Shown piece by piece: positions 26,821 to 38,409 of a DNA stretch of 64,000 nt. Location: positions 46,209 through 110,208 of the forward strand of contig JAFQQQ010000003.1 of NCBI GenBank assembly GCA_017410525.1, read 5' to 3'. The DNA comes from Bacilli bacterium (lineage in GTDB: Bacteria > Bacillota_I > Bacilli_A > RF39 > UBA660). Numbering within the stretch: the first letter of the stretch is position 1; the number at the start of each line of letters is the position of its first letter. The translations under genes and the position numbers were made by a program. The notes beneath the pieces are model-generated. The model saw only the letters and a program-made list of their open reading frames with translations. It was not told the DNA's origin and did no database searches.

Positions 26821-26849
26821 TTGACAAATATTTTTAAATTTGGTATCAT
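26821..26849 (+). promoter_or_regulatory. sigma-A type promoter for the candidate ncRNA
   Basis: TTGACA (26821-26826), a 17-nt spacer, then TATCAT (26844-26849). Confidence 0.6.
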
Positions 26850-26856
26850 GTTAATT

Positions 26857-27467
26857 GTCGATGGCACATTATTCTAGTCAGAGATTTATTATGAGGACGG
26901 GGCTAAAAATCCGTTAAAGAGCATATCTGTGAAACTTCTTGTGCTTGCTTCTTTTGCCCAAATTGGGGTGAGTGCTGGAAATGAGAGTGTTGGGCATCCA
27001 TAATGGCATATGTAAATGACCCACCATTCGTGGAGACCTATTCTTGTGTTTGGCCTATACGAACAAACTGACGGACTGAATACGAAATAGGATTAAACCT
27101 ACCAAGTGGCGAAAGTTACGGGTAGTGTAGCTTGTCTTGAGTGAGTAATAGGGATTATTGATTAACAATTTAGTAAGTTTATAGCTAGAACTTATATAAG
27201 TTGCAATATGAAATATTGTTTGCAAAAAAGAATTAATAATAAAAATTTGGTGAGGAAATCTTCTAGGGTGTTGTTAATATAGGATTGCAGTGCATACTAA
27301 GTGGCAATCAAGTAGTATATTTGGTGACAATATACTGAATTCTTTAAAGGGGAACCGCCTACTGGTAACGGTAAGTAGAATTTAGGGAAATCCAACTTGA
27401 CCTAAGATGCAAAGTTAATTATATTAACGCCATTATATATTAAAGACTATTCATTAGTCTTTTTTTG
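26857..27467 (+). ncRNA. candidate large (~610 nt) structured noncoding RNA, possibly OLE-like; identity unverified
   Basis: Longest ORF-free stretch in the window. G+C is visibly higher than the flanks. Bounded by a consensus promoter and an intrinsic terminator. Many GAAA/GNRA-type loops and short stems. No ORF longer than 30 codons in either strand. Confidence 0.45.
27443..27467 (+). terminator. intrinsic terminator ending the candidate ncRNA
   Basis: AAGACTA-TTCAT-TAGTCTT hairpin followed by T7. Confidence 0.6.
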
Positions 27468-27514: not shown

Positions 27515-27919
27515 ATGGAAGAAAATAAAAATGTTGAGATAGTACAAAATAATAAAGAGATAATGAATGAAGAATTTGCTTCTACTCAACAAGAAGTTGC
27601 AGAAGAAATAGATTCTGATTTTTCTGATATAAATAAAGAAGAAATGAAAAAAAATTATATTATTATAGCAATTCTTTATTTTGTTGTAATTATTTTATTT
27701 ATATTGTTAGTACTAGGTATAAAAAATCAAAAAGATACAGTTAAAGATAAAATAGATAGCAACAAAGAAGTTAATGATAAATTAGAACAAGAAAAAAACG
27801 AGGAAGTTGTTATTCCAGAAGAAAGACCAAAAAATCAAACTCCAGAAGAAATTATTATTCCTGATATAAATAATAATAATGGTTTAAATGATGAATTAAA
27901 TATTTTAGATCAAATATAG
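27515..27919 (+). CDS. hypothetical single-pass membrane protein with acidic N-terminus
   Basis: 134 aa. RBS AGGTGA. One TM helix. Low-complexity, E/K-rich. Confidence 0.5.
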   Translation: MEENKNVEIVQNNKEIMNEEFASTQQEVAEEIDSDFSDINKEEMKKNYIIIAILYFVVIILFILLVLGIKNQKDTVKDKIDSNKEVNDKLEQEKNEEVVIPEERPKNQTPEEIIIPDINNNNGLNDELNILDQI

Positions 27920-27927
27920 AGGTTAAC

Positions 27928-28473
27928 ATGAAAAAAAATAATAAGAAAAAAAATACGGTAGATTATAGTTGGATAATTAAAATAGTGCTTTCTAGTTTTT
28001 TAATATCAGTAGTATTTACACTTATATCAGAAACAGTAATACCTAATGTAGGAATTATATTAGGTTCAATTTTAACATTGGTTTTTATACTTGTAGGAGT
28101 TTTATTTGATATGATTGGTCTTGCTGTTGCAACCGCAGATGAAGCACAATTTAATTCAATGGTAGCTAAAAGGGTTAAAGGTGCTAAAATGGCTTTGAAA
28201 TTAAAGAAAAATGCAGATAAAGTATCAAGTTTTTGTAATGATGTAGTAGGAGATATATGTGGTATAGTATCGGGATCTACAGGCGCAGTTATTGCTATAA
28301 AAATAGTAGAATATTATAATTTTAATCCATTATTAGTTACACTTATTATAATGGGTATAATTTCTGCTTTAACAATAGGTGGTAAAGCGTTAGAAAAGGG
28401 TTATGCTATGAAAAAAAGTAATAGTATTTTATTTGGTTTTGCTAAGTTTTTAAGTTTATTTGTAAAAGAATGA
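27928..28473 (+). CDS. small four-TM membrane protein (OapA-like candidate)
   Basis: 181 aa. Four predicted TM helices. Basic loop KRVKGAKMALKLKKNADK. RBS GAGG. Confidence 0.45.
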   Translation: MKKNNKKKNTVDYSWIIKIVLSSFLISVVFTLISETVIPNVGIILGSILTLVFILVGVLFDMIGLAVATADEAQFNSMVAKRVKGAKMALKLKKNADKVSSFCNDVVGDICGIVSGSTGAVIAIKIVEYYNFNPLLVTLIIMGIISALTIGGKALEKGYAMKKSNSILFGFAKFLSLFVKE

Positions 28474-28481
28474 GGTGTTGT

Positions 28482-29402
28482 ATGAAAAATAAAGGATTCA
28501 CTCTTGTAGAATTATTAGCAGTTCTTATTATACTTGCTATTATATTTGTTATTTCTGTTCCTTTAATGACTGAAATATTAGATCAAAGTAAAAATACGCT
28601 ATATAAAAAACAAATTAATACAATTCTAGATGCAACTTATGATTATTCTTTAAAATATATTGAATATTTACCCGAAGACAATAATATCAGTTATATAACA
28701 CTAGGAGAATTAAAATATGAAGGTATAGTTGATTATGATTTAACTGATCCGGAAACAAATGAAAGATTTAAAAATGAATTAGTCATAAGTATTAACAAAG
28801 TAGGTACAGGATATAAAAATAGTGATATACATGCTAAATTAAAAGGTGACTATTTATATATAGTAGAAGTTGATAAATTAAAAGAAGCTAAAAATTTAAA
28901 ACCCATTATTACTTTGGATGGTTTAACAAAAAATACAGATGGAAATTATATTTTAACACTCGATTTAAATCAAGAAATTAATAATATTGCTTATAGTGCG
29001 ATTTCCGCAAATGGAGTAGATTTAACTAAAAAAGTAAAAAAATATATTTTATTAAATGATATTCCAACTGATAATATCACTACAACTAATTCAGGTATAT
29101 ATAAAGTTCATTATACAGTAGTAGATAACAATGGGTATGCTAATACAGCTACCTTAAGTATTATAATTGCGGATACAACAATACCTACAATTACGCTTCC
29201 AAATACAAATAAAATTGGTAAAGATGTAACAAATTTTGATTTATTAAAAAATGTTACTTGCGAAGATAACAGTGGTTATTGTGATATAGAGTTTTCTGGA
29301 GAAATAGATTATGGTGTTGTTGGAAAATATATAATTACATACACAGCAAAAGATCCAAGTGGAAATACAAGCATAAAGAAAAGAGTAATTACAATAGAAT
29401 AA
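28482..29402 (+). CDS. type IV pilin-like (prepilin N-terminal methylation domain) protein with Ig-like C-terminal region
   Basis: Classic class-III signal MKNKG/FTLVELLAVLIILAII. ATG at 28482 after GAGGTG. C-terminal beta-rich repeats. Confidence 0.65.
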   Translation: MKNKGFTLVELLAVLIILAIIFVISVPLMTEILDQSKNTLYKKQINTILDATYDYSLKYIEYLPEDNNISYITLGELKYEGIVDYDLTDPETNERFKNELVISINKVGTGYKNSDIHAKLKGDYLYIVEVDKLKEAKNLKPIITLDGLTKNTDGNYILTLDLNQEINNIAYSAISANGVDLTKKVKKYILLNDIPTDNITTTNSGIYKVHYTVVDNNGYANTATLSIIIADTTIPTITLPNTNKIGKDVTNFDLLKNVTCEDNSGYCDIEFSGEIDYGVVGKYIITYTAKDPSGNTSIKKRVITIE

Positions 29403-29472: not shown

Positions 29473-31002
29473 ATGAAAAAAATTAAGTTAATTGTATTAG
29501 TTTTATTAATAGTTTTATTAATTATAATTCTTTTTTATGAAATTTTTGGAACAAATTTATCTTACTTATCTTCTAGAGAAATAAAAGAAAATAGAATTTT
29601 AAATACAAATTTAATTACTCAATTAAAAATTAATAATGTAGATGCAATTTACGAAAAAAATACCAATACATTTTATTACACGATTCCAAGTAAATATGAA
29701 AATAATTTATATATTTTAAACTTAAATTTAGAAGATGGATTTAAATATAAAATAATTGATGAAACATTAAATATTATTAAAGTTAATTATACTAAAGAGA
29801 TAAACGTTATCATTTACAATGATAAATATTATTTTGAAACAAAAATACAATTAACAAATCTGCCTTTAATAAATATACTTAGTGAAGATGAAATTACTTC
29901 TAATGATACTAAGACACAGTTTAATTATTTTAATAATACTAATACTAAAAAAACAATTAATTTGAATAGTTTAATCAACATTAGAGGATCAACATCTAAA
30001 TGGTTTGATAAAAAATCTTATAAAATAAATTTTACTAATAAATCGTATACAGATGAAAAAGATATAAATATAGAAAATTTTTATAATGGCGATTCGTTGA
30101 TTTTAGATGCTGTTTATAGGGATCCTTCCAAAATAAGAAATGTTTTATGTATTGAGTTGTGGAATAACATTTCTAATGATTTTAGTAATGTAAATATATA
30201 TAGCGAGTTTGTAGAATTATTTATAAATAATGAATATAAAGGATTATATGTTTTAACTGAACCAATAAATAGAACTAAATTAAATTTAAATAAGACTTCT
30301 TCAAATGACACTAGTGTTATTGTAAAATCAAGTGTATGGGGAAAAATTCTTAATATAAGAGAGTATTATAAAATAGGTGAAAATGAATATTTGTATTATG
30401 AATTGAAATATCCAAATGATAAGAATATGTACGAAAAATCCTGGAATATAGTGTTAAATAAATTATCTAAATATTATAATAATGTAGATTTGTATGATGT
30501 TATAAAAAATAGTTTTAATATAGAAAATTATATTGACATGATAATATTTAATGCATTTACAAATAATGTAGATAATAAAATTGAAAAAAATAATTATTTC
30601 TATATAAATAGTTTAACAGATCCCCAACTGTTTATACAGCCTTGGGATATGGAATATACTTATGGACTTTTATTTGCAGAGAATATGTTTAACAATTTTA
30701 TAAAAAAAGAAGATTATAAAATAATATACACTAAATTTTATCACACAAATTCCTCTGAAATAAATAAATTACTAATAGAAAGATATTGGGAATTAAGAGA
30801 AAATATTTTAACTATAGATTTTTTTGATAGCTTATTAGGTAAATATTTAGATGAATTAACTAAGGGAGCTGCTTCAAGAGATTCAGAGAAGTGGTATGAA
30901 TATGATATAGAAAAAGAAATAGAAGAAATAAGAAGTTGGATTTACAATAGAATAGAATTTTTTGATGAATACGTGGAAAGCATAGAAAATGAAAAATCTT
31001 AG
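29473..31002 (+). CDS. CotH kinase-family protein
   Basis: N-terminal TM helix. CotH-like block NIRGSTSKWFDKKSYKINF. 509 aa. Confidence 0.6.
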   Translation: MKKIKLIVLVLLIVLLIIILFYEIFGTNLSYLSSREIKENRILNTNLITQLKINNVDAIYEKNTNTFYYTIPSKYENNLYILNLNLEDGFKYKIIDETLNIIKVNYTKEINVIIYNDKYYFETKIQLTNLPLINILSEDEITSNDTKTQFNYFNNTNTKKTINLNSLINIRGSTSKWFDKKSYKINFTNKSYTDEKDINIENFYNGDSLILDAVYRDPSKIRNVLCIELWNNISNDFSNVNIYSEFVELFINNEYKGLYVLTEPINRTKLNLNKTSSNDTSVIVKSSVWGKILNIREYYKIGENEYLYYELKYPNDKNMYEKSWNIVLNKLSKYYNNVDLYDVIKNSFNIENYIDMIIFNAFTNNVDNKIEKNNYFYINSLTDPQLFIQPWDMEYTYGLLFAENMFNNFIKKEDYKIIYTKFYHTNSSEINKLLIERYWELRENILTIDFFDSLLGKYLDELTKGAASRDSEKWYEYDIEKEIEEIRSWIYNRIEFFDEYVESIENEKS

Positions 31003-31666
31003 AAATGAATTAAAATATAAAATAACAGATAATGATTTTTATTTGTTAAATCTTAATTTAAAAAACTTAATAAAAAAAGATTCTAATTGTAAAGATGAGT
31101 TTTATAGCATTTCAAGTATTTATTTTGATAATTATAAAAAAACTTCTTATTATCAAGTTAAAAATGGAATAAGTGAAAGATGGAAATATAGAATAAGATT
31201 TTATAACTATGATGATTCATATATAATGTTAGAAAAGAAATATAAAATAAATGGATTAACTAATAAAAATGGTGTTAGAATTACTAGAGAAATGTTAGAT
31301 AATATTTTAAAAGGTAATGTGAAAATTGAAAAAAATCATAATAAATTATTAAACGAATTTATAATTAAAATAAAAACTGAATTATTAAAACCAATAATAT
31401 GTATTGAGTATGATAGAATACCTTATGTATATAAACTTGGAACAGTTAGATTAACTTTGGACTATAATATAAGGTATACAAATAATTATAGTGATTTATT
31501 TAATAAAAATAAAAAAGTGCATTATTTAAAAGATAAAATATTAGAAGTCAAATATAATGAATTAATTCCAGATTTTATAAGATATAGATTAGAATTAAAT
31601 CATTTAGAACAAATATCTTTTTCAAAATTTAATAATTGTATAGACAATTTAAATAGGAGGTTTTAG
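30989..31666 (+). CDS. VTC (polyphosphate-polymerase-like) domain protein
   Basis: ELKYKI..FYSISSIYFD..WKYRIRFYNYDDSYIMLEKKYK matches the bacterial VTC domain pattern. Confidence 0.65.
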   Translation: MKNLRNELKYKITDNDFYLLNLNLKNLIKKDSNCKDEFYSISSIYFDNYKKTSYYQVKNGISERWKYRIRFYNYDDSYIMLEKKYKINGLTNKNGVRITREMLDNILKGNVKIEKNHNKLLNEFIIKIKTELLKPIICIEYDRIPYVYKLGTVRLTLDYNIRYTNNYSDLFNKNKKVHYLKDKILEVKYNELIPDFIRYRLELNHLEQISFSKFNNCIDNLNRRF

Positions 31667-31668
31667 GT

Positions 31669-32349
31669 ATGATTTTAAAAGTAACCTTTGATGAAATATT
31701 TAAAGATAGTTTTTTAAATAATTTTTCATCTAATGTGTCAATTCCAACAATATGTGTGACACTTATATATACATTTTTATTATCTATATTTGTATTCTTT
31801 ATATACAAATTAACTACTAAAAATGTAATATATTCAAAGAAGTTCAATATATCAATGTCTTTGATGTCTATAATAACTGCTGCGATAGTTCTATCTATGC
31901 AAGCAAACATTACAGTATCACTTGGTATGGTTGGAGCTTTATCAATAGTAAGATTTAGAACTGCGATAAAAGAGCCGAGAGATTTACTTTTCTTATTTTG
32001 GAGTATATCTAATGGTATAATAATAGGAGCTCAGGTTTATTCAATGGCAATAGTACTTGCTATTGTGCTTGGTATAGCTATGTTATTCTTTGATATAATT
32101 CCAGAAAAAAAGATTCCATATTTACTAGTTATATATTTTAAAAGTGTAAAAACGAGAGATATAGAAATAATTCTTGGCAGTCATAAAGTAAAATATAAAT
32201 TAAAATCAGAAAATTTATCTAGTAAAGAATCTAGTTATATTTATGAATTAAAAGTTAAGAAAGATAAATCTTTTGTAGAAGAGATATTAAAAATTAAAGG
32301 AGTTAGTGAAGTTAACTTACTAAGTCAAGATGGAGAAAGTCAATATTAA
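31669..32349 (+). CDS. DUF4956 membrane protein
   Basis: SIVRFRTAIKEPRDLLFLFWSI matches the DUF4956 core. Multi-TM. Confidence 0.65.
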   Translation: MILKVTFDEIFKDSFLNNFSSNVSIPTICVTLIYTFLLSIFVFFIYKLTTKNVIYSKKFNISMSLMSIITAAIVLSMQANITVSLGMVGALSIVRFRTAIKEPRDLLFLFWSISNGIIIGAQVYSMAIVLAIVLGIAMLFFDIIPEKKIPYLLVIYFKSVKTRDIEIILGSHKVKYKLKSENLSSKESSYIYELKVKKDKSFVEEILKIKGVSEVNLLSQDGESQY

Positions 32350-32387
32350 ATCAACTTTATTTAGTTGATTTTTTTTATAATTATTAT

Positions 32388-32416
32388 TGACAAAATAGGT
32401 AACATATGTTACCATG
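32388..32416 (+). promoter_or_regulatory. promoter with embedded perfect 16-bp palindromic operator
   Basis: TTGACA at 32388-32393. GGTAACATATGTTACC at 32398-32413 sits between the -35 and -10 regions. RBS GGAGG at 32439. Confidence 0.55.
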
Positions 32417-32455
32417 TAAATGTATTAAGTTGTATCTTGGAGGTGTAATGTATCG

Positions 32456-32787
32456 GTGAATAATGATCAACTAAAGATTTTATCAAAAATGAAGAAATTA
32501 ATTAAATTAGGTAAAAGAAGATTCCAAATTAGAGAGACAGAGATTATTTACAAGATTTACTTGAACTAGGCATTAGTGAATCAGAAGCATGGAACGTTAT
32601 TTTAGAATTAAATAAACATTTTTATTTTAATGATCCTAAACCTTCATATTATAAAAACACTGATACATTAATTTTTAAAAAGCAAATAAATGGTATTGTT
32701 GCATATATTAAATTAAAAATTGAAAATAATAATAACCAAGAAGAGATAGTGGTATGTATATCTTTTCATGAAGATAATAGATTTTAA
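32456..32787 (+). pseudogene. MqsR-family (RelE-fold) type II toxin gene, interrupted by a single-nucleotide frameshift
   Basis: Frame 1 (GTG 32456) reads VNNDQLKILSKMKKLIKLGKRRFQIRETE... and stops at 32567. The +1 frame reads DYLQDLLELGISESEAWNVILELNKHFYFND...YIKLKIENNNNQEEIVVCISFHEDNRF and ends at 32787. The joined product aligns along the whole of E. coli MqsR. Confidence 0.6.
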
Positions 32788-32801
32788 AGGAGAATGTAAT
32801 T

Positions 32802-33770
32802 ATGAAATGTGATATTTGTGGGGGAACAAATACTTATATTAAAAATTACAAGCATGAATATACGATAAAAGGTAGAAATATAGAATTCGAAAGTGAAAGA
32901 TGTTTTTGTATTGAATGTAATTCTATCGTATATGATCAAATATTAGATAATATAGCAAGTGAAAAAGCAATAGATACATATAATAAAAAATATGGTATTT
33001 GTAAAGAAAAAATTATTGAATTAAGAAATAAATATAATTTGTCTTTAGAGTTGTTTGCTAAAATAATTGGATGTGCTAAAAAGACATTAATAAGCTATGA
33101 AAAAGGAACATCTATACCAAACGATAATTATATTATTATTTTAAATAGTTTATTATCAAACCCATTATTAATAATAGATTTGATAGAATCAAATAAAGGT
33201 CAATTCACTCAAAAAGAATATTCAAAATTGCAAGATAAACTTATACAAAACAACAACATAAATCAATTATTTTTTGATACTGATTTTGAACCTACTGTAT
33301 ATAATGGTTATACAAGATTAAATAAGAATAAAGTTTTAAATATGATTTTATTTTTAGCGGACACTACAATTTTAAAAACAAAGTTATTGAAAGAAATGTT
33401 TTATTCAGATTTTTTATATTATAAAAACACTGGTGCCTCAATAACAGGTTTAGAATATGCAAAAATAACACACGGTCCAGTGCCTGATAATTTTGATGAA
33501 ATAATTAGTGCTTATGTAGAACAAGGTTTAATAGATTATAAAATTGAATATGAAAACGATTATGAAAATCATAAAATTAGTAGTATTGATAAATTTAATA
33601 AAAATATTTTTTTAAGTGATGAATTAAAAATTTTAGAACAAGTAAAAAAATATTTTGAATCTTTTACTTCAAAACAAATAGCAGAGTTTTCACATATGGA
33701 AAAGGCATTTACTGAAACTGAATTTAGTAAAAAAATTGAATATGATTATGCCTTTTATTTAAGTTTATAA
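32802..33770 (+). CDS. MqsA-like antitoxin (Zn-ribbon + XRE HTH) fused to a C-terminal Panacea/DUF4065 domain
   Basis: MKCDICGG...KGR...CFCIECN zinc ribbon. HTH LSLELFAKIIGCAKKTLISYEKG. The C-terminal ~190 aa carry the DUF4065 pattern KLLKEMFYSDFLYYKNTGASITGLEYAKITHGPV. Confidence 0.7.
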   Translation: MKCDICGGTNTYIKNYKHEYTIKGRNIEFESERCFCIECNSIVYDQILDNIASEKAIDTYNKKYGICKEKIIELRNKYNLSLELFAKIIGCAKKTLISYEKGTSIPNDNYIIILNSLLSNPLLIIDLIESNKGQFTQKEYSKLQDKLIQNNNINQLFFDTDFEPTVYNGYTRLNKNKVLNMILFLADTTILKTKLLKEMFYSDFLYYKNTGASITGLEYAKITHGPVPDNFDEIISAYVEQGLIDYKIEYENDYENHKISSIDKFNKNIFLSDELKILEQVKKYFESFTSKQIAEFSHMEKAFTETEFSKKIEYDYAFYLSL

Positions 33771-33862
33771 AATTATTGTATAGTATAAATCAGTTATTCG
33801 AAAATTTAGAATAACTGAAAACTATGATAATAGTGTAATAAATTGTTAAAAAACATTACAAA

Positions 33863-33888
33863 ATAAGCTTTTTTAGGCTTATTTTTTT
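33863..33888 (+). terminator. intrinsic terminator
   Basis: AATAAGC-TTTTTAG-GCTTATT hairpin followed by a T-run. Confidence 0.45.
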
Positions 33889-33933
33889 GACTTTGATTTG
33901 AAAAATGTGTTATAATGAACTAGGTGAATAGAT

Positions 33934-35844
33934 ATGGTAAAATATGATGAAAGCTCAATTAAGATATTAGAAGGACTTGAAGCAGTTAGAAAAAGACCTG
34001 GTATGTATATTGGATCAACTGATAAAAGAGGACTTCATCATTTAATATGGGAAATTGTTGATAATGGTATAGACGAAGTTATCAATGGGTTTGGTAAAAA
34101 AATAAAAATAATATTACACAAAGATAAAAGTGTTAGTGTAGAAGATGAAGGAAGAGGTGTACCTGTTGGAAAACATTCTAGTGGTATGTCAACTCCAGAA
34201 GTAATTTATACTGTACTTCACGCAGGTGGTAAATTTGAAAGTAGCGGATATACTGTATCTGGAGGTCTTCATGGCGTAGGTGCTAGTGTTGTTAATGCCT
34301 TAAGTAAATGGATGGAAGTAACTATTAAAAGAGAAGGTTATGAGCACTTCATTCGTTTCAAAGATGGTGGTAAGGTAGATATACCTTTAACTAAAAGAGA
34401 CAAAACTAGTAAAACTGGTACAAGAGTTAGATTTATGCCAGATGATGAAATATTCTCAACTACTAATTTTTCATTTACTACTGTTTGTGAAAGGATGCAA
34501 GAAAGTGCTTTCCTTTTAGAAGGGTTAACAGTAGAAGTGACAGATGAAGAAGATAATAGAAATGAAAGTTTTTGTTATGATGATGGATTAAAAGCATTCG
34601 TTGAATACATAAATGAAGCTAAAAAAGAACTACACAAAGCAACTGTAATGAATGGTAGCAAAGATAAAATAGATGTTAAAGTAGCTTTTCAATATACAGA
34701 AAGTTATAGCGAAAATATAATATCGTTTGTTAATAATGTTAAAACAAGTGATGGTGGTACTCATGAAGTAGGACTTAAAACTGCTATTACAAGAGTATTT
34801 AATGAATATGCTAAAGAAAATGGATATTTAAAAGCCAAAGATAAAAACTTAGAAGGTCCAGATACAAGAGAAGGATTAACTGCTGTCATAAGTTTAAAAA
34901 TACCTGAAGCTTTACTTCAATTTGAAGGACAAACTAAAGGTAAACTTGGAACACCTATTGCTCGTACAGTAGTAGATAGTATAGTATCTGAAAAGTTAAA
35001 ATTCTTTCTTGAAGAAAATAAAGCAATTGCTACTGCAATTTTAAACAAAATGATTAAGAGTAGAAATGCTAGAGAAGCTGCAAGAAAAGCTCGTGATGAA
35101 GCTAGAAATGGTAAAAATAAAGATAAAAAAGAAAGAATTATTAGTGGTAAATTAACTCCTGCTCAAAGTAAGAATCCTAAAATAAATGAATTATTCTTAG
35201 TCGAAGGTGATTCTGCAGGTGGATCTGCTAAAACAGGTAGAGATAGAAAATATCAAGCAATACTACCACTTCGTGGTAAAGTATTAAATACAGAAAAAGC
35301 ATCATTAGATGAAGCTTATAAAAATGAAGAAATAAATACTATGATACATGCAATTGGTGCTGGTGTTGGAAGTGATTTTGATATAAATGATTCAAATTAT
35401 GATAAAGTAATAATAATGACCGATGCAGATGTAGATGGATCTCATATTCAAATATTACTTTTAACATTCTTCTATAGATATATGAAACCTTTAATTGAAA
35501 CAGGACATTTATATATCGCAATGCCGCCACTTTATAAAATTGAATGTGGTAAAGAAGGAGAATATGCTTGGACAGAAGAAGATAGAAAAGCACTTCTAGA
35601 AAAATATAAAGGTAAATCAACTAAGACACAAAGATATAAAGGTTTAGGAGAAATGGATGCTAATCAATTATGGGAAACAACTATGGATCCTAATACAAGA
35701 AGTTTAATTAAAGTAAGTATCAATGATGCTGCTTTAGCTGAAAAAAGAGTTAGAGTTCTTATGGGAGATAAAGTAGAACCTAGAAAAGAATGGATAGAAG
35801 AAAATGTAGAATTCTCACTAGAGGATAATTATAAAATTAATTAG
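33934..35844 (+). CDS. parE: DNA topoisomerase IV subunit B (ParE); GyrB-family ATPase
   Basis: LEGLEAVRKRPGMYIGST and a Toprim domain. 636 aa. Paired with a ParC-type A subunit. Extended -10 TGTGTTATAAT upstream. Confidence 0.75.
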   Translation: MVKYDESSIKILEGLEAVRKRPGMYIGSTDKRGLHHLIWEIVDNGIDEVINGFGKKIKIILHKDKSVSVEDEGRGVPVGKHSSGMSTPEVIYTVLHAGGKFESSGYTVSGGLHGVGASVVNALSKWMEVTIKREGYEHFIRFKDGGKVDIPLTKRDKTSKTGTRVRFMPDDEIFSTTNFSFTTVCERMQESAFLLEGLTVEVTDEEDNRNESFCYDDGLKAFVEYINEAKKELHKATVMNGSKDKIDVKVAFQYTESYSENIISFVNNVKTSDGGTHEVGLKTAITRVFNEYAKENGYLKAKDKNLEGPDTREGLTAVISLKIPEALLQFEGQTKGKLGTPIARTVVDSIVSEKLKFFLEENKAIATAILNKMIKSRNAREAARKARDEARNGKNKDKKERIISGKLTPAQSKNPKINELFLVEGDSAGGSAKTGRDRKYQAILPLRGKVLNTEKASLDEAYKNEEINTMIHAIGAGVGSDFDINDSNYDKVIIMTDADVDGSHIQILLLTFFYRYMKPLIETGHLYIAMPPLYKIECGKEGEYAWTEEDRKALLEKYKGKSTKTQRYKGLGEMDANQLWETTMDPNTRSLIKVSINDAALAEKRVRVLMGDKVEPRKEWIEENVEFSLEDNYKIN

Positions 35845-35853
35845 GAGTGAAGT

Positions 35854-38409
35854 ATGGCAAAGAAGAAAGAAGAAACAAACGAAATGTTAGGTAGAATTTA
35901 TGATTATACTCTAGAAGAAATAATGGGAGATAGATTTGGACAATATGCTAAAGATATTATTCAAAATCGTGCTATTCCAGATGTTAGAGATGGTTTAAAA
36001 CCTGTTCAAAGAAGAATTCTATATGCAATGTTTAGAGATAAAAATACTTATGATAAAGCCCATAAAAAGAGTGCTACAGCAGTAGGAAATGTTATGGGAC
36101 ATTACCACCCGCATGGAGACTCATCTATATATGAAGCAATGGTACATATGAGCCAGTGGTGGAAACAAAATGAATGTTATATAGACATGCATGGTAATAA
36201 TGGATCTATGGATGGTGATAGTGCTGCTGCTATGCGTTATACAGAAGCAAGACTATCTAAAATAAGTGGTGAACTTTTAAAAGATATAGATAAAGATACA
36301 ATAGAATGGGCACCTAACTTTGACGATACATTATATGAACCAATAGTTTTACCTGCTAAATATCCTAACTTACTTGTTAATGGTGCTAAAGGTATTTCTG
36401 CTGGATACGCTACAGAAATACCACCACACAACCTAGGTGAAGTTATAGATGCTACTATAAAAAGAATAGATTCTCCAAACTGTAGATTAGATACTATTCT
36501 TGATATAGTAAAAGGTCCGGACTTCCCAACAGGAGGAATTGTAGAAGGAAAGACGCAAATAGAAGAAGCTTTAACAAAAGGTAGAGGAAAAGTAATAATT
36601 CGTTCTAAATATGAAATAGTAGAAGACAAAAAGAACAAACAAGTAATTATACATGAAATACCTTTTGAAGTTAATAAAGCTAACTTAGTTAAAAAAATAT
36701 CTGATATTATCTATGATAAAAAAATAGATGGTATAACAGAAATAAGAGATGAATCAGACAGAGAAGAAAAGGTTAGAATTGCTATTGATTTAAAGAAAGA
36801 TGCTAATGTAGATAATATACTTAATTATTTATTTAAAAATACCGATTTACAAGTAAGTTATTCTTATAACATGGTGTGTATAGTAAATAGAAGACCTATG
36901 ATAGTAGGTGTTGTTGAAGTATTAGATGCATATATTGCTCATCAAAAAGAAGTAATAACACGTCGTACTAGATTTGATTTAGAACACGCTAAAGCAAGAA
37001 TGCATATCGTAGAAGGTTTAATTAAAGCTTTAGATATACTAGATGAAGTTATTAAAACTATTAGAGCTAGTAAAAATAAAAGTGATGCTATTAAAAACTT
37101 AGTAGAATGTTATGATTTTAGTGAAAAACAAGCAGAAGCAATAGTTAATTTACAACTTTATAGATTAACTAATACAGATGTTAATGTATTAAAAGAAGAA
37201 CATGCTAATTTACTTAAAGTAATTGCTATATTAGAAAGTATCTTAAGTGATGAAGAAAAATTAAAAACTGTTATGAAAAAAGAGTTAAAAGCTATTAAAG
37301 ATGAATATGCTACTCCAAGAAAAACAGAAATAAAAGATGAAATAACTGAAATAAAAATTGATACTCAAGCAATGATTCCAAAAGAAGATTGCATAGTAGT
37401 AGTAACTAAAGATGGTTATGTAAAAAGAGTTTCCAAGAGAAGTTATGCCGCATCTAATGAAGAAAAAACAGGATTGAAAGAACAAGATTATGTTATAGGT
37501 ATGTATGAATTAAATACACTCGATACAGTACTCTTGTTTACTGACATTGGTAATTATTTATTTGTGCCAGTACATGAAATACCTGATATGAAGTGGAAAG
37601 ATTTAGGTAAACATATAAGTAATATAATTAAAATAAATCCAGAAGAAAATATTATAGATGCAATACCTATAGTAGATTTTAATACAGATAAATATATTAC
37701 AGTATTTACTAAAAATGGTATGATTAAACGTACTTTAATTAGTGAATTAAAAGCTTTAAGACATACTAAACCAATGCCTTATATTAAACTTAAAGATGGA
37801 GATATAGTTGTTAATATATCTTATAATACTGGTACTGATGTATTTATAACTACACATAATGGATTTGCTTTAAGATATGATATAAATGAAGTGCCGCTTC
37901 TTGGAAGTCGTGCTAGTGGAGTTAAAGGAATTAGTTTAAAAAATGATGTAGTTGTTTCAGGTAATGTAATTAGTGATGAAGAATATATTTCTCTTATTAC
38001 AACAAAAAACACTGGTAAAAGAGTAAGAATATCAGATTTTGAAAGAATATCAAGAGCAAGAAAAGGTATTCAAATAATAAGAGATGTTAAAACTAATCCA
38101 TATTACATATTAAAAGCATTTACAATAAATTCTAGAAATAATATTGGATTAAAGTTCAAAGAAGATATAGAAATAATTAAATTAACTGAACTTCCAATAA
38201 CAGATAGACATTCAACAGGTACAAGTTTATCTAAACATGATATATTTGATGTATTTGTTGAAAAAGTTTTAGAAAATCCTAAAGAAACAAAAAAGGTTAT
38301 TGAAGAAGAAAAAGAAATAATAAAAGAAAATGTTTCTTTAGAAAGTATAGATCAACGAATGATGACTATTGATGACTTTTTAGGTGATTTAGATAAAGGG
38401 ATAGAGTAA
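35854..38409 (+). CDS. parC: DNA topoisomerase IV subunit A (ParC)
   Basis: AIPDVRDGLKPVQRRILYAM has the ParC-type VQRRIL motif rather than the GyrA-type VHRRVL. 851 aa. Confidence 0.75.
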   Translation: MAKKKEETNEMLGRIYDYTLEEIMGDRFGQYAKDIIQNRAIPDVRDGLKPVQRRILYAMFRDKNTYDKAHKKSATAVGNVMGHYHPHGDSSIYEAMVHMSQWWKQNECYIDMHGNNGSMDGDSAAAMRYTEARLSKISGELLKDIDKDTIEWAPNFDDTLYEPIVLPAKYPNLLVNGAKGISAGYATEIPPHNLGEVIDATIKRIDSPNCRLDTILDIVKGPDFPTGGIVEGKTQIEEALTKGRGKVIIRSKYEIVEDKKNKQVIIHEIPFEVNKANLVKKISDIIYDKKIDGITEIRDESDREEKVRIAIDLKKDANVDNILNYLFKNTDLQVSYSYNMVCIVNRRPMIVGVVEVLDAYIAHQKEVITRRTRFDLEHAKARMHIVEGLIKALDILDEVIKTIRASKNKSDAIKNLVECYDFSEKQAEAIVNLQLYRLTNTDVNVLKEEHANLLKVIAILESILSDEEKLKTVMKKELKAIKDEYATPRKTEIKDEITEIKIDTQAMIPKEDCIVVVTKDGYVKRVSKRSYAASNEEKTGLKEQDYVIGMYELNTLDTVLLFTDIGNYLFVPVHEIPDMKWKDLGKHISNIIKINPEENIIDAIPIVDFNTDKYITVFTKNGMIKRTLISELKALRHTKPMPYIKLKDGDIVVNISYNTGTDVFITTHNGFALRYDINEVPLLGSRASGVKGISLKNDVVVSGNVISDEEYISLITTKNTGKRVRISDFERISRARKGIQIIRDVKTNPYYILKAFTINSRNNIGLKFKEDIEIIKLTELPITDRHSTGTSLSKHDIFDVFVEKVLENPKETKKVIEEEKEIIKENVSLESIDQRMMTIDDFLGDLDKGIE

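What the first reader, a model, noticed from the sequence alone, without database searches (positions are those of the whole stretch)
32388..33770. MqsR-like toxin (frameshifted) with an MqsA-like antitoxin carrying a C-terminal Panacea (DUF4065) domain
Upstream of the 322-aa gene, two reading frames together encode a full-length MqsR-like toxin. The two frames are offset by one nucleotide near 32540. The joined product LSKMKKLIKLGKRRFQIRETE|DYLQDLLELGISESEAWNVIL...YIKLKIE...IVVCISFHE aligns along the whole of E. coli MqsR. The downstream protein has the exact MqsA architecture: MKCxxC...CxxC zinc ribbon plus an XRE-type HTH. It then continues into a ~190-aa Panacea/DUF4065-like domain (FYSDFLYYKNTGASITGLEYAKITHGPV). 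Panacea is a promiscuous antitoxin domain. Its fusion to an MqsA-type DNA-binding module next to an MqsR-type RNase toxin is an unusual combination. The toxin-first decay pattern (toxin frameshifted, antitoxin intact) is typical of toxin-antitoxin loci.
Basis: partly seen in the sequence, partly recalled or inferred. Interest (0 to 1): 0.65.

Follow-up and report, generated by a model that had tools for sequence, protein, structure and literature searches.

The report
Broken MqsR toxin, intact MqsA-Panacea antitoxin
This is an ordinary member of an already described and experimentally tested toxin-antitoxin family (MqsR RNase toxin plus a zinc-ribbon/HTH/Panacea antitoxin), in which this strain's toxin gene has been knocked out by loss of a single A.

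Summary
At 32456-32787 two reading frames together encode a 110-aa MqsR-like toxin. It is followed at 32802-33770 by an intact 322-aa antitoxin with an MqsA zinc ribbon, an XRE helix-turn-helix (HTH) and a Panacea/DUF4065 domain (Pfam, and fold matches to E. coli MqsR 3hi2_B and MqsA 3gn5).

The lesion is the loss of one A at 32533 (AGAAGAGAC to AGAGAGAC). It is not at 32540, and the repaired protein reads QIRRDRDYLQ, not QIRETE|DYLQ. Contigs from other samples carry the same locus with the A present. They differ from the window by only one further base in 462 nt, so this is a very recent null allele.

The "unusual combination" claim is wrong. MqsR is the commonest recognisable toxin partner of Panacea antitoxins (Kurata 2022). 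The same three-domain architecture was dissected experimentally in Bacillus fungorum (Ernits 2023). More than 100 clusters with this architecture exist in gut Bacilli, plasmids and phages.

New but modest details:
- A perfect 16-bp palindrome, GGTAACATATGTTACC, sits in the promoter spacer. It is conserved in relatives only 45-55% identical and is probably the operator.
- Three more independent toxin lesions occur in close relatives.

Low interest: a new member of a known kind.

The parts
32348..32376 (+). Intrinsic terminator of the upstream CotH-VTC-DUF4956 operon. It marks the 5' boundary of the toxin-antitoxin (TA) transcription unit.
   Evidence: 9-bp stem AAATCAACT/AGTTGATTT followed by a T run. 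RNA fold -8.1 kcal/mol, z=-4.25.
32387..32415 (+). Sigma-70-type promoter: TTGACA, 17 nt spacer, TACCAT, with TG upstream of the -10.
   Evidence: 10 of 12 consensus matches. A TTGACA -35 in the same position relative to the palindrome is present in relatives L006, L008, L009, L010 and L012.
32398..32413 (.). Perfect 16-bp palindrome GGTAACATATGTTACC in the promoter spacer, overlapping the -10. It is the probable operator for the HTH dimer of the antitoxin.
   Evidence: It is the only site in the 64-kb window even allowing 3 mismatches. It is conserved exactly or nearly so (GGTTACCTATGTTACC, TGTAACTTATGTTACA) in front of toxin genes whose antitoxins are only 45-55% identical (L009-L012, L014, L016). 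Binding itself is inferred.
32448..32459 (+). Three-codon mini-ORF ATG TAT CGG TGA. Its stop overlaps the GTG start of the toxin. The GGAGG Shine-Dalgarno sequence lies at 32439-32443.
   Evidence: Read directly from the sequence. The same arrangement occurs in L006. Any role in toxin translation is inferred.
32456..32533 (+). mqsR-like toxin pseudogene, 5' part (codons 1-26, frame A). Frame A then runs out of frame to TAG 32567-32569.
   Evidence: 96% identical to residues 1-26 of the intact P0121.
32533..32533 (+). Frameshift site. One A of an AA dinucleotide is missing (AGAAGAGAC to AGAGAGAC).
   Evidence: Alignment A1 with the intact alleles L003 and L004. The two tblastn segments abut at 32533.
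32533..32787 (+). mqsR-like toxin pseudogene, 3' part (codons 27-110 and stop, frame B).
   Evidence: 100% identical to residues 27-110 of P0121. It contains the family-invariant Y84 and the SFH motif with H105.
32787..32792 (+). The antitoxin's own Shine-Dalgarno sequence, AAGGAG, 9 nt before the ATG.
   Evidence: Read directly from the sequence.
32802..33770 (+). Intact 322-aa antitoxin (PanA type). It has an MqsA zinc-binding domain (about aa 1-60; C3, C6, C36, C39), an XRE HTH (about aa 61-125), a helical linker, and a Panacea/DUF4065 domain (Pfam aa 195-302).
   Evidence: Pfam and NCBIfam. PDB by sequence. AlphaFold model pLDDT 80, with Foldseek best hit 3gn5 MqsA. The four Cys residues are invariant in 34 homologues. 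Identical to NCBI MBQ2946752.1, 'MAG: DUF4065 domain-containing protein [Bacilli bacterium]'.
33791..33888 (+). Two hairpins after the antitoxin. The second (33860-33885, followed by a T run) is an intrinsic terminator and marks the 3' boundary of the unit. The parE promoter follows at 33887-33916.
   Evidence: RNA fold -29.7 kcal/mol, z=-5.6. Promoter TTGACT-18-TATAAT.

Best explanation
This is a chromosomal type II toxin-antitoxin operon of the MqsR:PanA kind, in an uncultured gut Bacilli genome with 24% GC. It lies between a CotH-VTC-DUF4956 operon and parE/parC. The gene order is toxin first, then antitoxin, as in E. coli mqsRA.

In the ancestral state one promoter drives a 110-aa MqsR-fold RNase and a 322-aa antitoxin. 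Each step of the mechanism below is inferred unless marked as shown.

- The N-terminal zinc-binding domain of the antitoxin binds and neutralises the toxin. This is shown for the B. fungorum homologue and inferred here.
- The HTH dimer represses the operon by binding the conserved palindrome GGTAACATATGTTACC, which overlaps the -10. This is inferred from position and conservation.
- The C-terminal Panacea domain is not the neutraliser. It may be a sensor that releases the toxin on some cue such as phage infection. This is a published hypothesis and has not been tested.

In this strain, loss of one A at 32533 truncates the toxin after 26 native residues. The toxin is a null allele. The antitoxin keeps its own ribosome-binding site, its promoter and its operator, so it is presumably still made and autorepressed. 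The lesion is very recent, because intact alleles differ by only one other base in 462 nt and encode a 100% identical antitoxin.
For: Domain identities: PF15723 E=2.2e-5; PF15731 34.4 bits; PF01381; PF13274 62 bits; TIGR03830 E=1.4e-15.

Folds: toxin model pLDDT 91, with its sole significant PDB hit MqsR 3hi2_B (E=7.7e-4, TM 0.59/0.66, 96 of 97 columns). Antitoxin N-terminus best hit MqsA 3gn5 (E=8.5e-7; by sequence E=7e-5 over residues 1-125).

Family: all 120 listed antitoxin homologues have the same architecture and a length of about 325 aa. There are 61 toxin homologues of about 108-110 aa, and 25 of 32 sampled match PF15723. An intact toxin lies directly upstream of the antitoxin in L003, L004, L006, L009-L012, L014, L016 and L021-L032.

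Frameshift.

Operator.

Boundaries.

Literature: in B. fungorum MqsR:PanA, the ZBD alone or ZBD-HTH neutralises the toxin, while Panacea alone or HTH-Panacea does not. Panacea is proposed to be a sensor (PMC10440598). MqsR-like is the commonest known toxin domain paired with Panacea antitoxins, n=90 (PMC8832971).
Against: The toxin's Pfam score (25.1-25.2 bits) is 1 bit under the curated cutoff (26.2). A family profile hits E. coli MqsR in the PDB only weakly by sequence (E=0.71). Of the E. coli MqsR active-site residues, only the Tyr81 equivalent (Y84) is clearly conserved; Lys96 aligns with an invariant His105 and Lys56 with Asn59. The catalytic detail may therefore differ.

No toxicity, neutralisation or DNA-binding experiment exists for this clade.

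The window, L001 and L002 are identical over 7 kb and may derive from the same sample. The deletion allele has therefore not been shown in two independent biological samples.
Confidence: 0.88

Rival explanations
1. The frameshift is a sequencing or assembly error, and the toxin is intact in the real genome.
For: It is a single-base indel. The window, L001 (ENA assembly of SAMN15829899) and L002 (Logan assembly of SRR12529065) are identical over 7 kb, so they may all come from one read set. Two pattern scans of JGI metagenomes found neither allele, so there is no independent confirmation.
Against: Separately produced assemblies give the same deletion. The site is not a homopolymer: it is AA within AGAAGAGA. 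The deletion haplotype also differs from the intact contigs at a second position, A/G at 32427. Close relatives carry other, unambiguous toxin lesions, so toxin loss is plainly happening in this clade.
Confidence: 0.08
2. The shift is a programmed -1 ribosomal frameshift or transcriptional slippage, so a low level of full-length toxin is made as a form of regulation.
For: A -1 re-reading of base 32533 would restore exactly the ancestral protein.
Against: There is no X XXY YYZ slippery heptamer and no A/T run at the site (CAA ATT AGA GAG ACA). Near-identical alleles and all other family members encode the toxin in a single frame. The shifted state is a minority variant, not a conserved feature.
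Confidence: 0.02
3. The antitoxin is retained after toxin loss because it has a toxin-independent role. It could act as anti-addiction immunity against incoming MqsR-carrying mobile elements, or as a Panacea-dependent regulator. On this view the locus is better described as an orphan regulator than as a decaying TA.
For: Four independent toxin lesions were found in close relatives: the window, L005, L007 and L008. The antitoxin ORF is full-length in three of them. Pairwise antitoxin dN/dS is 0.13-0.28, including comparisons with the toxin-less L007 and L008.
Against: The window's lesion is too recent to say anything about retention. L007's toxin remnant is still an open frame, so that lesion is also recent. 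In L005 the antitoxin has lost its start codon too (ATG to ATA; it is called as 243 aa). The pairwise dN/dS values include the long period before toxin loss and are slightly higher in L008, especially in the ZBD (0.52). Losing the toxin first and the antitoxin later is the expected neutral decay order for any TA.
Confidence: 0.08

Closest known systems
Bacillus fungorum MqsR(D2):PanA toxin-antitoxin system (Ernits et al. 2023, PNAS, PMC10440598)
   Same: It has the same two-gene module: an MqsR-type toxin and an antitoxin built as a zinc-binding domain, then an HTH, then a C-terminal Panacea domain. Domain order and sizes agree with the description in the paper.
   Different: The host clade differs: uncultured gut Bacilli at 24% GC. 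This copy has a frameshifted toxin. The operator palindrome reported here is not described in the passages of that paper that I read.
E. coli MqsR/MqsA (YgiU/YgiT), PDB 3hi2, 3gn5, 3o9x
   Same: The toxin comes first in the operon. The toxin fold matches. The antitoxin has a ZBD with four Cys plus an XRE HTH. There is a palindromic operator in its own promoter.
   Different: The antitoxin carries an extra C-terminal extension of about 190 aa that includes the Panacea domain. Sequence identity is only about 23%. The operator sequence differs (GGTAAC-ATAT-GTTACC). In the toxin, His replaces E. coli Lys96 and there is no clear equivalent of Lys56.
PanAT systems in general (Panacea/DUF4065 antitoxins; Kurata et al. 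2022, PNAS, PMC8832971) and SocA of Caulobacter
   Same: The Panacea domain scores well above the Pfam cutoff. It sits in a bicistronic TA-like operon. MqsR-like toxins are the commonest known partner.
   Different: In many PanAs the Panacea domain itself neutralises the toxin. In the ZBD-containing subtype the ZBD does so. SocA acts as a proteolytic adaptor (type VI), and nothing here indicates that.

Membership tests
MqsR toxin (PF15723) | Full-length match to the family profile at the curated threshold | tested here: inconclusive
   25.2 bits (E=2.2e-5) against a gathering score of 26.2, covering profile positions 6-95 of 95. 25 of 32 family members match at E<=0.01, best 4.3e-6. A profile search against the PDB puts MqsR first, but at E=0.71.
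MqsR toxin (PF15723) | RelE-like alpha/beta fold superimposable on E. coli MqsR | tested here: met
   AlphaFold model of the intact allele has pLDDT 91. Foldseek against the PDB gives 3hi2_B as the only hit with E<=0.001 (E=7.7e-4, prob 1.00, TM 0.59/0.66).
MqsR toxin (PF15723) | Catalytic residues (E. coli K56, Q68, Y81, K96; numbering from my knowledge of Brown et al. 2009) | tested here: inconclusive
   The Y81 equivalent, Y84, is invariant. K96 aligns with the invariant H105 of the SFH motif. K56 and Q68 align with the non-conserved N59 and T71. A catalytic Tyr was also needed in B. fungorum.
MqsR toxin (PF15723) | Encoded immediately upstream of an MqsA-type antitoxin in one operon | tested here: met
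MqsR toxin (PF15723) | Intact ORF, and toxic RNase activity | tested here: not met
   In this window the ORF is broken at 32533, so the gene is a pseudogene. Activity of the repaired protein cannot be tested with these tools.
MqsA antitoxin (PF15731 / TIGR03830) | N-terminal zinc ribbon with two CxxC pairs | tested here: met
   C3, C6, C36 and C39 are invariant in 34 homologues. The model has a beta-hairpin pair at residues 11-36.
MqsA antitoxin (PF15731 / TIGR03830) | XRE-type HTH following the zinc domain, and a profile match above the cutoff | tested here: met
   PF15731 scores 34.4 bits against 30, over residues 1-122. HTH_3 scores 26.9 against 23. TIGR03830 scores 57.2, just under its cutoff of 61.8. 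3gn5 matches by sequence at E=7e-5 and by fold at E=8.5e-7.
MqsA antitoxin (PF15731 / TIGR03830) | Palindromic operator in its own promoter (autoregulation) | tested here: met
   A perfect 16-bp palindrome lies between the -35 and the -10. It is conserved across loci whose proteins are 45-55% identical. Binding and repression themselves cannot be tested here.
PanA (Panacea / DUF4065 antitoxin) | SocA_Panacea domain above the Pfam gathering score | tested here: met
   62 bits against 25.7, residues 195-302, profile positions 1-111 of 113.
PanA (Panacea / DUF4065 antitoxin) | Conserved two-gene neighbourhood with a toxin | tested here: met
   A toxin gene of about 108-110 aa lies directly upstream in more than 15 loci from different contexts.
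PanA (Panacea / DUF4065 antitoxin) | Direct sequence relationship to the validated B. fungorum ZBD-HTH-Panacea PanA | not tested
Only the published domain order was compared.

The most novel reading that the evidence does not exclude
In this lineage of gut Bacilli the MqsR toxin is lost again and again. The lesions are a 1-nt deletion here, a 5' deletion in L007, a stop codon plus internal deletion in L008, and replacement in L005. The ZBD-HTH-Panacea antitoxin and its operator persist. This could mean that the orphan antitoxin is kept by selection for a toxin-independent job, such as immunity against incoming MqsR-bearing elements or Panacea-sensed transcriptional control.
Probability: 0.08. 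Interest if true: 0.45.

Novelty: new member of a known kind. Interest (0 to 1): 0.15.

Why it matters
It matters little beyond annotation. The public record calls the antitoxin only a 'DUF4065 domain-containing protein', and the toxin is not called as a gene in the public assemblies of this strain that I examined (L001, L002). The locus can now be labelled as an MqsR:PanA type II TA with a toxin pseudogene.

Two by-products could help people working on Panacea antitoxins. The first is a sharply conserved candidate operator (GGTAAC-N4-GTTACC) for the ZBD-HTH-Panacea subgroup. The second is a natural pair of near-isogenic alleles, toxin intact and toxin null, with an identical antitoxin. That pair could be used to ask what the antitoxin and its Panacea domain do when no toxin is present.

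Tried and rejected
- Two exact-pattern scans of JGI metagenome contigs, designed to catch both alleles, found nothing. The frequency of the deletion allele in independent samples remains unknown.
- PADLOC has no specific model for either protein. It gave only weak HTH matches.
- A profile search of the toxin family against PDB sequences put MqsR first but without significance (E=0.71). The fold comparison was needed to settle it.
- Pairwise dN/dS of the antitoxin by domain did not separate toxin-less from toxin-bearing lineages, so it cannot test the orphan-function idea.
- Programmed frameshifting was considered and rejected. There is no slippery site, and in-frame alleles exist.
- An alternative genetic code was considered and dismissed. 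The stops that bound the two frames are TAG, which the TGA-reassigning codes (4 and 25) do not change, and table 11 gives long ORFs throughout.
- A second toxin or antitoxin copy in the window was looked for and not found.
- The 125 nt that replace the toxin in L005 match nothing in the window or in the other loci.

Full report
WHAT IS IN THE SEQUENCE

The window has 24% GC. Between a CotH-VTC-DUF4956 operon (29473-32349; Pfam) and the Gram-positive-type topoisomerase IV genes parE/parC (33934-38409; NCBIfam equivalogs) lies a small, self-contained transcription unit. It is bounded by hairpin terminators at 32348-32376 and 33860-33888.

The unit starts with a good sigma-70 promoter, TTGACA-17-TACCAT with an upstream TG (32387-32415). 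Two features follow:
- Two overlapping reading frames. Frame A runs from GTG 32456 to TAG 32569 and encodes 37 aa. Frame B is open from 32527 to TAA 32787.
- An intact 322-aa ORF at 32802-33770, with its own AAGGAG ribosome-binding site.

THE FRAMESHIFT

Sixty-one homologues of the joined product exist as single ORFs of about 108-110 aa.

The window's antitoxin protein occurs, 100% identical, on nine public contigs. In L003 and L004 a 110-aa toxin gene is called upstream of it. In L001 and L002 none is called.

Aligning the 462 nt from the end of the DUF4956 gene to the start of the antitoxin shows only two differences between the two groups. One is an A/G substitution at window position 32427. 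The other is one missing A in the window, L001 and L002 (AGAAGAGAC to AGAGAGAC). tblastn puts residues 1-26 at 32456-32533 and residues 27-110 at 32533-32784.

The lesion is at 32533, not about 32540, and the ancestral junction is QIRRDRDY rather than QIRETE|DY. Frame B contains no usable start codon. The site has no slippery motif or homopolymer. This is a plain null mutation, not recoding.

A closely related antitoxin variant from the same 90%-identity cluster (P0183, on 23 contigs from many samples) has the intact toxin at the same chromosomal position. Intact is therefore the common state, and the deletion is a recent minority allele.

One caveat applies. The window, L001 and L002 are identical over 7 kb. 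The antitoxin is NCBI MBQ2946752.1 from a Bacilli MAG. These assemblies may share one read set. Two pattern scans of JGI metagenomes found neither allele.

WHAT THE GENES ARE

Toxin:
- Pfam MqsR_toxin matches over the whole profile, at E=2e-5 and 25.2 bits, against a cutoff of 26.2.
- 25 of 32 family members match that profile.
- An AlphaFold model of the intact allele (pLDDT 91) has E. coli MqsR (3hi2_B) as its only significant PDB match (E=7.7e-4, TM 0.59/0.66 over 96 columns).
- The family-invariant residues include Y84, which aligns with the E. coli catalytic Y81, and the C-terminal SFH motif, where H105 aligns with E. coli K96.

Antitoxin:
- MqsA_antitoxin matches residues 1-122, HTH_3 matches 71-116 and SocA_Panacea matches 195-302, each above its gathering score.
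- E. coli MqsA matches residues 1-125 by sequence and is the top fold match (3gn5, E=8.5e-7).
- The four zinc-binding cysteines (C3, C6, C36, C39) are invariant in 34 homologues.

HOW IT MOST LIKELY WORKS

By analogy with the experimentally dissected Bacillus fungorum MqsR:PanA (PMC10440598), three roles can be assigned:
- The zinc-binding domain binds and neutralises the RNase.
- The HTH dimerises and autoregulates the operon.
- The Panacea domain does not neutralise. Its role is unknown, and the authors propose that it is a sensor.

Here a perfect 16-bp palindrome, GGTAACATATGTTACC (32398-32413), fills the promoter spacer and overlaps the -10. It is the only such site in the window even with 3 mismatches allowed. 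It recurs, exactly or as a close variant, at the same place in front of toxin genes in loci whose antitoxins are only 45-55% identical (L009-L012, L014, L016). That is good footprint-type evidence for an operator, but binding is inferred.

In the deletion allele the promoter, the operator and the antitoxin are untouched. The expected phenotype is therefore an autorepressed antitoxin with no toxin.

COMPARISON WITH WHAT IS KNOWN

It is not, for four reasons:
- The DUF4065-MqsR association had been noted by 2013, and MqsR-like is the most frequent recognisable toxin domain next to Panacea antitoxins (n=90; PMC8832971).
- The ZBD-HTH-Panacea architecture has been validated by toxicity-neutralisation and truncation assays.
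- In the protein database, all 120 listed homologues (56-97% identity) carry PF15731 plus PF13274, most with PF01381 as well, and nearly all are about 325 aa long.
- Full-length relatives at 22-29% identity sit on plasmids of Bacteroides, Tenacibaculum, Clostridium, Paenibacillus and Fibrella, and on gut phage contigs. NCBI's annotation pipeline already names some of them 'type II TA system antitoxin MqsA family protein'.

The species-representative genome scan places this subfamily in uncultured gut Bacilli, Bacillota and 'Tenericutes' MAGs.

TOXIN DECAY IN RELATIVES

Synteny (DUF4956, toxin, antitoxin, parE) is kept down to about 75% antitoxin identity, with an intact toxin (L006, L021-L024, L030-L032). 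Three close relatives carry other lesions:
- L007 lacks the promoter, the operator and the first 18 or so codons of the toxin.
- L008 has a premature stop and an internal deletion.
- L005 is the GTDB species representative, with an antitoxin 98% identical. Unrelated sequence replaces the toxin, and the antitoxin start is ATA. Gene callers therefore give a 243-aa product.

The pattern of toxin first and antitoxin later is thus seen directly. Pairwise dN/dS of the antitoxin is 0.13-0.28. The HTH is the most constrained domain and the ZBD the least. This cannot distinguish selection for an orphan function from time lag.

VERDICT

This is a new member of a known, experimentally characterised kind, carrying a fresh toxin-null allele. 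Interest is low.

Noticed in passing
window 26845-27449 (+): A full-length OLE (Ornate Large Extremophilic) RNA: Rfam RF01071, 374 bits, E=2.5e-106, model positions 1-616 of 616. It is in a 24%-GC gut Bacilli MAG. Two small ORFs follow it (27515-27919 and 27928-28473) with no NCBIfam match, then a prepilin-type protein (28470-29402).
   Followed up: partly
window 32448-32459: A three-codon mini-ORF (ATG TAT CGG TGA). Its stop overlaps the GTG start of the toxin, and the GGAGG is better spaced for the mini-ORF than for the GTG. The same layout occurs in L006. It may throttle or couple toxin translation.
   Followed up: no
L007:3620-3800: In the roe-deer caecum MAG RGIG4073 (antitoxin 82% identical), homology to the toxin begins only at GGTAACAGAAGATTCC (window 32509-32524). 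The promoter, the operator and about 18 codons are gone, and the upstream neighbour is different. The remaining 92 toxin codons are still an open frame.
   Followed up: partly
L005:1-160: In the GTDB species-representative MAG (E08__bin130; antitoxin 98% identical, parE 99%), the toxin gene is replaced by 125 nt of unrelated sequence ending in a GC-rich hairpin (GGTAGTGTCAAAAACTCTGCACACTACC). The contig ends there, which may indicate a repeat or insertion sequence (IS) element. The antitoxin start codon is ATA.
   Followed up: partly
L008:3700-4010: A more distant relative (antitoxin 68% identical) has its locus downstream of parC instead of upstream of parE. It carries a toxin remnant with a premature stop and an internal deletion of about 24 codons, while the operator GTAACATATGTTAC is retained.
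   Followed up: partly
L028:3317-4712; L025-L027:4023-4978: Family members at about 56-62% identity sit next to other defence or TA genes: a DarT-NADAR (DarTG) pair in L028 and a D12-class DNA methyltransferase in L025-L027. This suggests defence-island contexts elsewhere.
   Followed up: no
L003:1-1462 and L004:3-326, compared with window 29473-31666: Contigs with the intact toxin allele are 99.6-100% identical to the window in DUF4956 and the antitoxin, but only 92-94% identical (protein) in the adjacent CotH and VTC genes. This points to a recombination breakpoint just upstream of the TA locus.
   Followed up: no
window 33791-33817: A 9-10-bp hairpin (CAGTTATTC...GAATAACTG) lies immediately after the antitoxin stop and ahead of the actual terminator. 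The whole 122-nt intergenic RNA folds far better than shuffles (z=-5.6).
   Followed up: partly
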